IMG/VR virus record: IMGVR_UViG_3300023174_006147
Location: 20,475 to 84,474 of that record
Origin: a virus
Reading direction: 5' to 3' (one strand)
Length of the DNA stretch: 64,000 bases
Numbering within the stretch: the stretch's first letter is position 1; each line of letters starts with the position of its first letter. Both the position numbers and the translations under genes were made by a program. The notes beneath the pieces are model-generated. The model saw nothing but the letters and a program-made list of their open reading frames with translations, ran no database searches and had not been told where the DNA came from. Shown here one piece after another: positions 17,680 to 26,179 of the stretch.

Positions 17680-17715
17680 AAAAAATAGCTCTGGCAAATT
17701 AATGCCAGAGCTATT
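17680..17715 (-). terminator. Intrinsic terminator after the DUF2828 gene
   Basis: atagctctggca/tgccagagctat hairpin plus U tract on the minus strand. Confidence 0.8.
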
Positions 17716-17724
17716 AGGGAAGGA

Positions 17725-19143
17725 TTAGATATCGTAACGAGGATTCATGATGGCCTTCATCATAATTCCAGTAGGAGTAAACTCCTGCATATCAGCAGCA
17801 AGCAGTGCCTTGACAATGCTTGGGCTGAAACCGCTCACGAGTGCAGCACCCGACTTGTCTGCTTTCACCGGAACGTTATCACTAGCGTTCAGGTTCCAGA
17901 AGACAACCTGCGGAACAGTATAACCTGCTTCTGCGTACTTACGTTCGATCATCTGAATTGCAGTGTCGTCGTAGTTACTGCAACAATTAAACTGCATGTC
18001 CGAGAGGATAAGCAGCATTTCAGGCATTTCACCCTGAGGTACACCGTTCTTGACTGCAACATCAAGGATCTTGTTGAATGCAGCGTGTAGGTTAGTACTC
18101 ATGCCCCATTCGCTCTTGGCCATCTGTGCAGCCTTTTCAACAACATTGCCCTTGAGAGTAACTAGTTGAGGACTGGAACTGAAAGTAAGGAAAGTGTCCT
18201 TGAACTTGCCAGTGTTCTTGTCCGCAAGATAGAGACCCAGTGAAACTGCAACGTCAAGGCAAGTAACCTCACTCTTAGAAGAGCTACCACCTGCACGACA
18301 AGTCATAGAACCCGAAACATCAACAAGTGGAAGAATGTTTGCATCCCCAACATAGTTAGGAAGTGCATTCCACTGTGCCACAACGTGATCAAGCTCAGTC
18401 TTACCCAGCGAAGGACCATAGTGACGAATGACGCCCTTAAGAACATCATACGGATATACTGCACCAGCGTTGACCTTGGCAGTAGGATCACCCTTTACCA
18501 GCTTGGCAACGTACTCAGCAAACTTAGGAGTATTGCGAGTAAATGCCTTCTTGTAGCGCGAAGCTGCAAGACTAGGAACATGGTTAAAGTTGATGTTGTC
18601 CCAATCCTTAGCACACATCTGAGTTTCAACAACCTTGGTCAGGTTAACCAGAGTCTTACGATACTGCTTAGGGCTCATACCAAGTGCAGATCGAAGTTCT
18701 GCTGCCACTGCGCCCTTGCGAGGCATCCACTTGGCGCAAAGACCATTGCCACTGGCAAGTGCTTCTGCGATCAGTGCGTATGCTTCGGTCTTGAGATCGA
18801 TGGTTTCAAAGACGAGTAGATCGTCCCATCGGCCAATTTCTGGTACCTTTGCAAGAAGTGCCTTTGCTGCATCGGGGTCAGTCTTTTCCAGCTGAACAAG
18901 GATGTCACGGAAAATCTTACGTTCGCCTGCACCGCCACGAGCGTCACGCGCCCACTGTGCAACGCGCAGTGCAATTTCTCGATTTTCCACGAATGCACCA
19001 GTAAAGGCAGGGACGATATTCTTGCCACGGCTCGCGCCAATTGCAAAGAAAAGGTCAACGTTCTTGGACGCTGACGACTTAAGAGCCCGCATGCCGTTAG
19101 TGGTACGAGCTTCCTGGTTTGCTACTGCTTCTACAAAATTCAT
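17725..19143 (-). CDS. DUF2828 / TROVE-like helical + vWA protein (Ro60-related)
   Basis: RDARGGAGER, GRWDDL, AKWMPR, MIDAS DVSGSM, LSDMQF, VFWNL, SGFS. Confidence 0.85.
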   Translation of the reverse strand: MNFVEAVANQEARTTNGMRALKSSASKNVDLFFAIGASRGKNIVPAFTGAFVENREIALRVAQWARDARGGAGERKIFRDILVQLEKTDPDAAKALLAKVPEIGRWDDLLVFETIDLKTEAYALIAEALASGNGLCAKWMPRKGAVAAELRSALGMSPKQYRKTLVNLTKVVETQMCAKDWDNINFNHVPSLAASRYKKAFTRNTPKFAEYVAKLVKGDPTAKVNAGAVYPYDVLKGVIRHYGPSLGKTELDHVVAQWNALPNYVGDANILPLVDVSGSMTCRAGGSSSKSEVTCLDVAVSLGLYLADKNTGKFKDTFLTFSSSPQLVTLKGNVVEKAAQMAKSEWGMSTNLHAAFNKILDVAVKNGVPQGEMPEMLLILSDMQFNCCSNYDDTAIQMIERKYAEAGYTVPQVVFWNLNASDNVPVKADKSGAALVSGFSPSIVKALLAADMQEFTPTGIMMKAIMNPRYDI

Positions 19144-19156
19144 GTTTATTTCCTTT

Positions 19157-19209
19157 CAGGTTAATTTGGTTTGCTTTATGAATGCAAGTTTCTGTGCTGT
19201 TTTTAACCT
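19157..19209 (-). promoter_or_regulatory. Family-A RNA motif in the 5' UTR of the DUF2828 gene
   Basis: AGGTTAA-AAACAGCA...TTAACCTG abutting SD AAAGGA. Confidence 0.7.
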
Positions 19210-19236
19210 ATTAAACAATGTGCTTAATATGTGTGT

Positions 19237-19265
19237 ATTATAGTGTATTGTGTTGACTGCGTCAA
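19237..19265 (-). promoter_or_regulatory. Sigma70-like promoter
   Basis: TTGACG-N17-TATAAT. Confidence 0.75.
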
Positions 19266-19275
19266 CATATATTTT

Positions 19276-19384
19276 ACAGGATGTTGTGACATTAAAAGAC
19301 CGGGAGTCGAACCCATTGTCACTGTCCCCACTGGACTGGCCCGCTAGTTTTGAGAGCGAATAATGATTGCGGTAATCATCCTAA
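19276..19384 (-). ncRNA. Family-A Y-like RNA with T-arm cargo
   Basis: AGGATG-ATTACCGCA...GGGTTCGACTCCC...CATCCTG. Confidence 0.7.
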
Positions 19385-19401: not shown

Positions 19402-19467
19402 ACAGGATGCCTTTTTTGCTTTTTTGATTACAAGTCAAGTGCATAAAGGTTTGCTGCAGGCATCCTT
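19402..19467 (-). ncRNA. Family-A Y-like RNA with Thr(UGU) anticodon-loop cargo
   Basis: AGGATGCC-TGCAGCA...TTGA-CTTGTAA-TCAA...GGCATCCTG. Confidence 0.7.
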
Positions 19468-22053: not shown

Positions 22054-22242
22054 CTATGCCTGACCGTTTTTCCAGTCATCTTCGGTGATTTCAAAATCGG
22101 CATTTTTAACAGACTTAATGGCTCTAAACACGGTTACTGCACCTAAACACACAGCACCGGTTACACCAAATACTGCAAGAAATGCAATCTTTGGACCCAG
22201 AGTCCTTGCCTGTTCATATACTAAATGTTTGATCTGTTTCAT
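22054..22242 (-). CDS. Small membrane protein
   Basis: ORF with a TM segment. Confidence 0.6.
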   Translation of the reverse strand: MKQIKHLVYEQARTLGPKIAFLAVFGVTGAVCLGAVTVFRAIKSVKNADFEITEDDWKNGQA

Positions 22243-22357
22243 TGCGATAACCTTATTTACTCATCAAGTAAAACACACCAAATACTGCAAGAACTGCAAT
22301 CTTTGGACCTAGAATTCTTGCTTGTTCATATACTGCATGTTTGATCTGTTTCATTGT
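22163..22357. repeat. Imperfect tandem duplication (~85 bp) of the 5' half of the small membrane gene
   Basis: caaatactgcaagaa...gatctgtttcattg occurs twice. Confidence 0.85.
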
Positions 22358-22463
22358 GGTAGCCTTTGTAATTGCTATTTACTTGACAAGTATAAAACAC
22401 CATGATGGTATTGTCAATATTAAAATTAATAAATAGTATGATTACATTGGAGAAATGTGTACC

Positions 22464-25621: not shown

Positions 25622-26179
25622 TTATCTGGAGTTTGCTATACTGGTCAACAGTGCTTTTACTCTTCCAAATGGCATTTTGTCAATATTCTGAATGAATTTT
25701 GGATCAAATGGCAACTTTGTTAGTGTTTGTTGCACAGATTGCAGTGATGCCAGTGTTTTCTTTGCTGTTGCACGTTGTTCGCCTGCTTGATATGTATTAG
25801 CAATTCCTTGTGCTGCTCCAGTTGCTGCTCCGCCAATTGCTTTTCCTGCCTGCTGTGCTGCTCCAGATGCTGCCTGACCTGCTTGCTGTGCTGCGCCGCC
25901 AATTGCCTGTCCTGCTTGCTTCAATGCACCACCAACTGCTTGACCAGCGCCTGCAGCTGCCTGACCGACACGGCTTGCCGCGCCGCCCACTGCTCTTGAA
26001 GCTGCTCCACCAAGCGCACTAAGGCCACCCAATAATTCACTCAATTCAGCTTCTGATAATTCACCGGATTCGATCATCTGGGTGATTCTGTTGGACTCTG
26101 AAAGTGCTTGTGTTTTTACATCAGGCGCAACATCTTCCATTGTTTCAATAAATTTAACTAAATCTCTCATGGAATCCAT
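25622..26179 (-). CDS. Ala/Gly/Gln-repeat putative virion protein
   Basis: Approximately 11-aa repeats such as AGQAIGGAAQQ. Confidence 0.7.
   Translation of the reverse strand: MDSMRDLVKFIETMEDVAPDVKTQALSESNRITQMIESGELSEAELSELLGGLSALGGAASRAVGGAASRVGQAAAGAGQAVGGALKQAGQAIGGAAQQAGQAASGAAQQAGKAIGGAATGAAQGIANTYQAGEQRATAKKTLASLQSVQQTLTKLPFDPKFIQNIDKMPFGRVKALLTSIANSR

What the first reader, a model, noticed from the sequence alone, without database searches (positions are those of the whole stretch)
19144..19265. Family-A motif in the DUF2828 5' UTR suggests autoregulation
Between the promoter (19237-19265) and the ATG lies AGGTTAA-AAACAGCA...TTAACCTG, ending immediately before SD AAAGGA. Inference: free protein binds its own leader and represses translation until titrated by the Y-like RNAs. 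This placement is also the best in-sequence evidence that the motif is this protein's ligand.
Basis: partly seen in the sequence, partly recalled or inferred. Interest (0 to 1): 0.75.

Follow-up and report, generated by a model that had tools for sequence, protein, structure and literature searches.

The report
Partner-RNA handle in Ro60-like gene's leader
Just before the start of a phage gene for a Ro60-shaped RNA-binding protein lies a stripped-down copy of the short RNA "handle" carried by that phage's Y-RNA-like small RNAs; relatives keep it there, so the protein probably binds its own message, but no binding or repression has been shown.

Summary
On the minus strand a near-consensus promoter (19265-19237) is followed by AGGTTAA-AAA-CAGCA...TTAACCT-G (19209-19157). 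This ends 1 nt before the SD AAAGGA and 13 nt before the ATG of a 472-aa DUF2828/DUF7788 protein, and a strong terminator follows the gene.

The element is a genuine member of a nine-copy "handle" RNA family in this contig, where about 0.04 are expected by chance. The protein model folds like Ro60 (Foldseek top 13 hits, E down to 2e-9).

- 75 of 81 homologous loci carry a handle ending 10-30 nt before the ATG, with compensatory changes in 5 of 7 helix pairs.
- Four of 15 distant cultured phage lineages do too.

Leader copies form a distinct subclass: mostly without cargo, with bare copies under 50 nt found only there, and often with the usual GUU tail replaced by the SD.

Autoregulation remains inference. 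Felix O1-like phages, mycobacteriophages and a Staphylococcus phage have the handles downstream instead. Another handle here also abuts an unrelated ORF's RBS. Y RNAs co-transcribed upstream of Ro60 genes are known.

This scan has reported the same system, the leader copy and the resemblance to Dictyostelium Class I RNAs on at least 15 other genomes.

The parts
19237..19265 (-). Sigma-70-type promoter TTGACG-N17-TATAAT. The predicted transcription start is near 19230 (inferred).
   Evidence: 11 of 12 consensus matches. Similar consensus promoters head the tRNA units, for example 20114-20086 with 12 of 12.
19157..19209 (-). Handle element A1. It comprises a 7-bp closing helix (19209-19203 with 19164-19158), spacer AAA, CAGCA (19199-19195), a small inner hairpin (19187-19171), an A-rich 3' segment and the closing G (19157).
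   Evidence: The position is conserved in relatives and the helix covaries.
19151..19156 (-). Shine-Dalgarno AAAGGA, starting directly after the closing G of the handle.
   Evidence: Close relatives have the same CCTG|AAAGGA junction.
17725..19143 (-). Gene for the 472-aa DUF2828/DUF7788 protein. It is predicted to have a Ro60-like helical ring plus a vWA domain with a MIDAS motif.
   Evidence: Pfam; phrog_850 'RNA-binding protein'; invariant D275/S277/S279/T350/D382; model with pLDDT 79.5; Foldseek top 13 hits all Ro60.
17684..17715 (-). Intrinsic terminator (13-bp stem, T run) closing the one-gene transcription unit.
19277..19382 (-). Handle element A2 (AGGATG...CATCCTG) with a T-arm-like cargo. 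It ends 11 nt before the promoter.
19403..19466 (-). Handle element A3, short cargo, directly after the PTH2 gene.
   Evidence: Rfam RF01414 gives 20 bits, below threshold.
34037..34138 (-). Handle element with a tRNA-like cargo, which ARAGORN calls tRNA-SeC(tca).
   Evidence: Model R1 scores it 25.5 bits, and it was not in the training set.
34154..34278 (-). Handle element (AGAGTGT...ACACTCTG) with a permuted tRNA cargo.
   Evidence: YrlA RF02553 gives 35.2 bits, below threshold.
35973..36107 (-). Handle element (GGGATGC...GCATCCCG) with a tRNA-like cargo.
36451..36538 (-). Handle element with a tRNA-like cargo. The ATG of a 45-aa ORF (36295-36432) follows 18 nt later.
   Evidence: Model R1 scores it 27.9 bits.
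38749..38805 (-). Short handle element.
   Evidence: RF01414 gives 28.8 bits, below threshold.
39496..39617 (-). Handle element with a permuted tRNA cargo.
   Evidence: YrlA RF02553 gives 43.8 bits, below threshold.

Best explanation
A1 is a cargo-poor copy of the 'handle' that marks this phage's Y-RNA-like small RNAs. The handle is a 7-bp closing helix, 3 nt, CNGCA, an A-rich 3' strand and a closing G.

A1 is transcribed from its own promoter as the 5' part of the monocistronic mRNA for the Ro60-like DUF2828 protein. The handle is most likely that protein's binding site. Its 3' strand ends 1 nt before the SD and 13 nt before the ATG. A bound ring protein of about 53 kDa would therefore keep the 30S subunit off. 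That would limit the protein's own synthesis until free handle RNAs titrate it.

Shown here: the element, its family membership, its conserved position and covariation, and the Ro60-like fold. Inferred: binding, repression and titration.
For: - Family and position. There are nine handles, all on the gene's strand. 75 of 81 homologous loci have a copy ending 10-30 nt before the ATG. Five of the 7 helix pairs change on both sides.
- Leader copies are a special subclass, counted on unique sequences. 44 of 51 are short against 44 of 137 elsewhere. Copies under 50 nt occur only in leaders (5 against 0), for example the 33-35 nt ones in L001, L002 and L005. 14 of 51 have AA instead of UU after the closing G, against 0 of 137 elsewhere.
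- A dedicated promoter lies in front of the leader copy and a terminator lies behind the gene. Promoters also precede the leader copy in L001, L002 and the L051 group.
- Distant phages repeat the arrangement. phiN3 has a 36-nt bare handle 15 nt before the ATG. BUCT-ZZ01, NCTC12673 and Lak-C1 also have one.
- The protein folds like Ro60 over its full length.
- The helix is too weak to fold stably alone, as expected for a site that is stabilised by protein.
Against: - No binding or expression data exist.
- The leader copy is absent in Ounavirinae (Silverhawkium, Bas63), mycobacteriophage Douge, a Staphylococcus phage, Serratia BF and Salmonella PHA46.
- Seven unique leader copies carry full tRNA-like cargo, like free-standing RNAs.
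- Most leader copies keep the GUU tail, and the spacing to the SD varies from about 0 to 15 nt.
- Elements in these arrays are packed a few nt apart, and handle 36451-36538 also abuts the RBS of an unrelated 45-aa ORF.
- Y RNAs co-transcribed upstream of Ro60 genes are already known (PMC4201824, PMC12135203).
- The leader-versus-other statistics are not corrected for shared ancestry.
Confidence: 0.4

Rival explanations
1. A1 is simply the last, minimal partner-RNA gene of the array, like YrlB. It is co-transcribed with the protein gene for co-expression and cut out as a small RNA. Its closeness to the SD reflects tight packing of a compact genome, not regulation.
For: - In M. smegmatis, YrlA and YrlB lie upstream of rsr and come from one precursor (PMC4201824). 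Thermus phage phiLo has two Y-like RNAs upstream of its Ro60 gene (PMC12135203).
- Handles lie downstream or further upstream in many phages.
- 28 of 51 unique leader copies keep the GUU tail of free-standing copies.
- Handle 36451-36538 abuts another ORF's RBS.
- Some leader copies carry tRNA-like cargo.
Against: - Bare 33-36 nt handles have no cargo to present, and they occur only at the leader position.
- In this window's clade the tail is replaced by the SD. Excision would leave a 13-nt leader beginning at the SD.
- A dedicated promoter makes a transcript holding only this handle plus the ORF.
Confidence: 0.35
2. The leader handle acts on the mRNA itself rather than on translation. It could be a protein-bound 5' structure that protects the transcript from 5'-end-dependent decay. 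It could also be a processing site that separates the mRNA from the upstream tRNA and handle transcript.
For: - The element is near the predicted 5' end of the transcript.
- In many relatives there is no promoter between the upstream array and the leader copy, so processing must occur somewhere.
- Ro60 RNPs work with exoribonucleases (PMC4201824, PMC12135203).
Against: The helix is weak alone. About 20 nt of unstructured RNA precede it in this window, which is a poor design for 5'-end protection. No nuclease site is recognisable.
Confidence: 0.12
3. The resemblance is a chance inverted repeat in an AT-rich leader and has no function.
For: A1 deviates from the other eight copies (AGGTTAA, CAGCAc, GAA tail). 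It gives no Rfam hit and is not thermodynamically stable.
Against: Shuffles give 0.035 full matches per strand. The same position holds a covarying handle in 75 of 81 relatives and in four distant cultured phages.
Confidence: 0.02

Closest known systems
Ro60 (Rsr, TROVE + vWA) with Y RNAs encoded next to its gene. Examples are M. smegmatis YrlA/YrlB, D. radiodurans Yrn1/Yrn2, Salmonella YrlA/YrlB and Thermus phage phiLo Yrl1/Yrl2 (PMC4201824, PMC12135203).
   Same: - A ring-plus-vWA protein with a MIDAS motif.
- Small RNAs closed by a terminal helix, several with tRNA-like or permuted-tRNA modules. YrlA model positions 23-87 match at 35-46 bits.
- The RNAs are encoded on the same strand beside the gene, often upstream and co-transcribed.
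   Different: - The protein matches Pfam DUF2828/DUF7788, not TROVE.
- The conserved RNA segment is helix-N3-CNGCA(A), not GNCGAA or GGUCCGA.
- No element reaches the YrlA gathering score.
- I found no description, in what I could read, of a binding-site copy abutting the RBS of a Ro60 gene.
Autogenous translational control by target mimicry. Examples are ribosomal proteins L1, S8 and L20, T4 RegA and gp32, and the MS2 coat protein operator (established knowledge, from memory).
   Same: A cut-down copy of the protein's primary RNA target sits at or next to the RBS of its own mRNA. Titration by the primary target would relieve repression.
   Different: Neither binding nor repression has been shown here. 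The SD is adjacent to the helix, not inside it.
Bas63 gp130, the Felixounavirus Ro60-like protein that counters the Ppl defence (PhageMaP preprint, PMC11482910).
   Same: It belongs to the same protein family: 39% identity over the full length, E = 2e-101. Four handle RNAs lie in the adjoining tRNA cluster.
   Different: There is no handle in its leader. According to the paper the protein works when expressed alone from a plasmid or from T7, so phage handle RNAs are not needed for that activity.
Dictyostelium Class I RNAs (Rfam RF01414; Kjellin et al. 2021, PMC7919456).
   Same: - A short terminal helix whose structure, not sequence, is conserved.
- The helix is followed by ..UUACAGCAA.
- A variable interior and an A-rich 3' part.
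- The start is AAG and the end is CUGU.
- Six short handles from four phage lineages match the model end to end at 20-29 bits.
   Different: - All matches are below the gathering score of 41.5, and A1 itself gives no hit.
- The known binding proteins are different. They are Rnp1A (RRM) and DDB_G0281243, which is an Alba-like protein and not DUF2828.
- I could not test whether Dictyostelia encode a DUF2828 protein.

Membership tests
Phage 'handle' RNA family (this scan's family A; no Rfam entry found) | A 7-bp helix joining the two ends, with sequence free but pairing kept | tested here: met
   AGGTTAA/TTAACCT pair in A1. Across 41 sequences, 5 of 7 pairs change on both sides. The sequences were selected by a pairing regex, so the 100% paired figure is by construction.
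Phage 'handle' RNA family (this scan's family A; no Rfam entry found) | A 3-nt spacer then CNGCA(A) directly after the 5' strand | tested here: met
   AAA-CAGCA is present, but it is followed by C instead of the usual A.
Phage 'handle' RNA family (this scan's family A; no Rfam entry found) | A closing G followed by UU | tested here: not met
   The G is present (19157), but it is followed by AAAGGA. An AA tail occurs in 14 of 51 leader copies and 0 of 137 other copies.
Phage 'handle' RNA family (this scan's family A; no Rfam entry found) | Lies beside a DUF2828 gene on the same strand | tested here: met
   All 182 model hits in the 80 loci are on the gene's strand. Handles lie near the gene in 11 of 15 cultured lineages.
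Y RNA / YrlA (Rfam RF02553) | Reaches the family's gathering score (69 bits) | tested here: not met
   There is no hit on A1. Other copies score 35-44 bits, over the tRNA-like part only.
Y RNA / YrlA (Rfam RF02553) | Ro60-binding motif GNCGAAN0-1G near the 5' end | tested here: not met
   A1 and the other handles have CNGCA(A) instead. The motif definition is from PMC4201824.
Dictyostelium Class I RNA (Rfam RF01414) | Reaches the gathering score (41.5 bits) | tested here: not met
   A1 gives no hit. A3 scores 20 bits and 38749-38804 scores 28.8 bits.
Ro60 / TROVE protein | Pfam TROVE domain match | tested here: not met
   Only DUF7788 and DUF2828 are found at E <= 0.01. phmmer against PDB sequences finds nothing.
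Ro60 / TROVE protein | Helical-repeat ring plus a C-terminal vWA domain with a MIDAS motif | tested here: met
   The Foldseek top 13 hits are all Ro60 (9kop, 1yvr, 9l5y, 2nvo and others), with E from 2e-9 to 7e-5 and TM about 0.55 over about 500 columns. D275, S277, S279, T350 and D382 are invariant.
Autoregulatory mRNA operator (target mimic) | The operator resembles the protein's primary RNA target and overlaps or abuts the RBS | tested here: met
   The handle copy ends 1 nt before the SD and 13 nt before the ATG. That the handle is the protein's target is itself inferred.
Autoregulatory mRNA operator (target mimic) | The protein binds the operator and lowers its own translation | not testable with these tools
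   This needs EMSA, toeprinting or reporter assays.

The most novel reading that the evidence does not exclude
The Ro60-like DUF2828 protein reads the handle on its own mRNA as a gauge of free protein. Cargo-bearing handle RNAs from the tRNA region titrate it, so protein synthesis is matched to partner-RNA supply. This would be the first feedback circuit described for any Ro60-type RNP.

A bolder add-on is that the same handle is what Dictyostelium Class I RNAs carry, so they too would be partners of a Ro60-like protein. I rate that add-on separately at about 0.1.
Probability: 0.3. Interest if true: 0.7.

Novelty: new variant of a known kind. Interest (0 to 1): 0.6.

Why it matters
Ro60-Y RNA particles are studied from bacteria to humans, where they are an autoantigen. 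What sets the ratio of protein to RNA is unknown.

A binding-site copy at the RBS of the protein's own gene would be a simple, testable answer in a phage version of the system.

A family member (Bas63 gp130) was recently reported to counter the Ppl anti-phage defence (PMC11482910). Knowing the protein's RNA ligand and its control therefore bears on phage-host conflict.

The handle family seems absent from Rfam and from the papers I could search. Cultured phages (NCTC12673, phiN3, BUCT-ZZ01, Bas63) offer direct experimental access.

Tried and rejected
- **Megablast of the locus against cultured phages:** no match.
- **Exact-motif search for AGGTTAAAAACAGCA with 3 mismatches:** not above chance. 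The family is defined by architecture, not by this string.
- **phmmer against PDB sequences:** nothing. NCBIfam also gave nothing.
- **Literature on 'DUF2828':** only unrelated plant and tardigrade papers.
- **Lead that the unknown Class I RNA pull-down protein DDB_G0281243 is a DUF2828 protein:** rejected. It is annotated as an Alba-like domain protein.
- **Looking for a Dictyostelium DUF2828 protein:** the profile search was swamped by more than 8000 phage relatives and the ESM Atlas gave only viral clusters. This was not resolved.
- **RNA evidence:** one lake metatranscriptome run (contigs only, relatives at 88-97% identity) covers parts of the ORF, A3-A2 and the PTH2/tRNA region. It shows nothing over 19180-19313 and gives no usable transcript ends.
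- **Thermodynamic folding of the leader:** no support for or against.
- **Supplements of Chen et al. 2014** (which phages they listed) are not held, and the Ro60 review PMC10870794 is not held.
- **Model R1 hits on A1, A3 and 38749** are by construction, because these were in the training alignment.
- **Not done:** a control scan of tRNA-rich phages that lack DUF2828.

Full report
**Context.** The window is part of a single 84-kb contig of an uncultured tRNA-rich phage. It holds 41 tRNA genes, all on the minus strand, and has no close cultured relative. The ORF 17725-19143 (minus strand, 472 aa) matches Pfam DUF7788 (2.9e-49) and DUF2828 (4.5e-22). It also matches phrog_850 'RNA-binding protein'. 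The upstream gene is a PTH2 peptidyl-tRNA hydrolase.

**The observation.** Reading the minus strand gives, in order:
- TTGACG (19265-19260), 17 nt, then TATAAT (19242-19237), which matches 11 of 12 consensus positions.
- 27 nt of unstructured sequence.
- AGGTTAA (19209-19203), AAA, CAGCA (19199-19195), a small TTGC/GCAA hairpin, an A-rich stretch, TTAACCT (19164-19158) and G (19157).
- Immediately after that, AAAGGA (19156-19151), then ATG at 19143.
- A 13-bp terminator with a T run after the gene (17715-17684).

The unit promoter-handle-ORF-terminator is therefore self-contained.

- A strict scan finds 7 copies on the minus strand and none on the plus strand. Shuffles give 0.035.
- Two looser copies bring the total to nine, all between 19157 and 39617.
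- Six carry tRNA-like or permuted-tRNA cargo. Two of these match the tRNA-like core of Rfam YrlA below threshold (35 and 44 bits). Two others are mis-called as tRNA-SeC by ARAGORN.
- A1, A3 and 38749-38805 have only a short interior.
- A1 has the helix, spacer, CAGCA, A-rich 3' strand and closing G, but it is the most divergent copy. It has AGGTTAA instead of AGGATnn, CAGCAc instead of CAGCAA, and no UU after the G.
- On its own the leader folds no better than shuffled sequence (z = -0.27).

**The protein.** An AlphaFold2 model built from 43 homologues (pLDDT 79.5, pTM 0.77) was searched against the PDB. The 13 best matches are all Ro60 proteins: Thermus phage phiLo, Xenopus, Deinococcus and human. 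They align over the full length with E from 2e-9 to 7e-5 and TM about 0.55. The vWA MIDAS residues are invariant. There is no sequence-level match to TROVE or to PDB chains. 'Ro60-like' is therefore supported at the level of fold, not of family membership.

80 viral contigs encode proteins 64-90% identical to this one.
- 75 of 81 loci (window included) have a handle ending 10-30 nt before the ATG. Most of the remainder have relaxed or truncated versions.
- The helix differs widely (AGGTTAA, AGATTGA, AGATTCA, AGGATGC, AGAATGT, AGTTTAG and others) but always pairs. Five of 7 pairs change on both sides. The sequences were picked by a pairing regex, so the evidence is the diversity, not the 100% paired figure.
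- A covariance model built from the short copies finds 182 elements in these loci. All are on the gene's strand and 175 are upstream.

**Leader copies are a distinct subclass.** Counts are on unique sequences.

| Feature | Leader copies | Other copies |
|---|---|---|
| Short (70 nt or less) | 44 of 51 | 44 of 137 (Fisher p = 2e-11) |
| Under 50 nt | 5 | 0 |
| Helix begins AGGAT | 9 of 51 | 79 of 137 |
| AA after the closing G | 14 of 51 | 0 of 137 |

- In other copies the tail after the closing G is UU in 113 of 137.
- The closest relatives L001 and L002 (90% and 83% protein identity) have bare 33-35 nt handles with no interior at all.
- These counts are not corrected for shared ancestry. They may partly reflect one orthologous copy inherited at that position.

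**Wider range.** 711 cultured-phage records encode a homologue at 50% identity or less. I inspected 15 lineages.
- **Handle ending 28 nt or less before the ATG:** Synechococcus phage BUCT-ZZ01, Campylobacter phage NCTC12673, Sinorhizobium phage phiN3 (a 36-nt bare handle, 15 nt before the ATG) and Prevotella phage Lak-C1.
- **Last handle 73-124 nt upstream:** Listeria cka16, Bacillus PBC2 and Enterococcus TJE2.
- **Handles downstream of the gene:** Silverhawkium, Bas63, mycobacteriophage Douge and a Staphylococcus phage.
- **No handle nearby:** Serratia BF and Salmonella PHA46. BF has candidates 200 kb away.
- **Only a bare UUACAGCAA before the SD:** two KVP40-like Vibrio phages.

The pairing of gene and handle is very broad, and this is better evidence for a protein-ligand relation than the leader placement. 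The leader placement itself recurs but is lineage-specific.

**Mechanism.** The geometry fits classic autogenous control: a cut-down copy of the target at the RBS. Three points favour an operator role:
- cargo-less copies are exclusive to leaders;
- the tail is lost in favour of the SD;
- a dedicated promoter precedes the leader copy.

Four points count against it:
- the arrangement is not universal;
- some leader copies carry full cargo;
- arrays are packed a few nt apart, and handle 36451-36538 also abuts the RBS of an unrelated 45-aa ORF;
- Y RNAs co-transcribed upstream of Ro60 genes and processed from one precursor are known (PMC4201824; PMC12135203).

I rate autoregulation at about 0.4, a plain co-transcribed minimal partner RNA at about 0.35, and an mRNA-stability or processing role at about 0.12. 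The first two are not mutually exclusive. One metatranscriptome run gave no usable transcript ends.

**What is known.**
- Chen et al. 2014 reported YrlA-like RNAs near Ro60 genes in 254 bacteria and 22 phages, with a GNCGAA motif.
- The phiLo study showed that a phage Ro60 binds two upstream Y-like RNAs.
- The PhageMaP preprint (PMC11482910) reports that Bas63 gp130 is Ro60-like, lies before the tRNA genes, counters the Ppl defence, and works when moved alone into T7. I show that gp130 is 39% identical to the window's protein and has four handle RNAs downstream.
- I found no paper or Rfam family describing the helix-N3-CAGCAA handle or a leader copy.

**Class I RNAs.** Six short handles from four phage lineages match Rfam RF01414 (Dictyostelium Class I RNA) end to end at 20-29 bits, against a gathering score of 41.5. 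The published features are shared: a terminal helix, CCUUACAGCAA, start AAG and end CUGU. A1 itself gives no hit. The untested pull-down protein DDB_G0281243 is Alba-like, not DUF2828. I treat this as a resemblance only.

**Earlier scan notes.** This scan has reported the same protein-handle system on at least 15 other genomes. It has also reported leader copies (e1-5834003, e1-5838123, e1-5594686) and the Class I resemblance. One later check priced a report's bold reading at 6 in 100 (e1-272486). I took it to be the Class I link, which is why I keep that link low. These notes are not independent evidence.

**Verdict.** This is a new variant of a known kind (Ro60/Y-RNA particle; target-mimic operator). 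Interest is 0.6.

Noticed in passing
window 36295-36538 (-): Handle 36451-36538 is followed by TTTAATTTAGGAGATATC and the ATG of a 45-aa ORF (36295-36432), 18 nt after the closing G. This is a second case of a handle abutting an RBS, at a gene unrelated to DUF2828.
   Followed up: partly
window 34046-34117 and 36458-36528 (-): ARAGORN's two 'tRNA-SeC (tca)' calls lie inside handle elements. They are tRNA-like cargos with a UCA anticodon-like loop whose acceptor stem is replaced by the handle. They are not selenocysteine tRNAs.
   Followed up: partly
window 38656-38855 (-): There is a sub-threshold match to Rfam RF02956 (DUF2693 RNA): 30.7 bits, E = 0.0046, over the full model. It spans tRNA-Thr plus handle 38749-38805.
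   Followed up: no
L087 (Bas63, MZ501086) 32695-32908: Two Bas63 handle RNAs (32695-32763 and 32782-32908) overlap small 'hypothetical protein' CDSs annotated on the opposite strand (bas63_0137 and bas63_0138). These are therefore probably mis-annotations.
   Followed up: no
L083 (Vibrio phage D525) and L095 (Vibrio phage PG216), about 35 nt before the DUF2828 ATG: Both KVP40-like phages have a promoter, then a bare ..ACATT(A/T)TACAGCAA.. 10-12 nt before the SD, with no closing helix. This may be a half handle in the leader. L046 and L047 show the same (AGATTGATAACAGCAAAGGAG).
   Followed up: partly
L045 2632-3000: The leader handle and its SD/ATG context are kept, but a small ORF of about 90 codons lies between the handle and the DUF2828 gene. 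The element therefore heads a different gene there.
   Followed up: no
leader handles of L019, L024, L032, L038, L044, L049 and L070: The short interior is a hairpin with a covarying 4-5 bp stem and a constant 7-nt loop CUUGAAA (CUUGUAA or CUUCUAA in others). It looks like an anticodon loop (U33, purine 37).
   Followed up: no
window 19325 (inside A2): One metatranscriptome contig ends at 19325 directly against Illumina adapter sequence. This is a cDNA end in the middle of A2's cargo. It is a single contig from a relative, so it is not interpretable.
   Followed up: no
window 22163-22366 (+ coordinates): Two 92-nt direct repeats, 89% identical and 112 nt apart, cover the starts of two small minus-strand ORFs. 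These are probably tandem paralogues.
   Followed up: no
window 25794-25993: A 33-nt periodic repeat (5-6 copies, 62-75% identical) lies inside a coding region.
   Followed up: no
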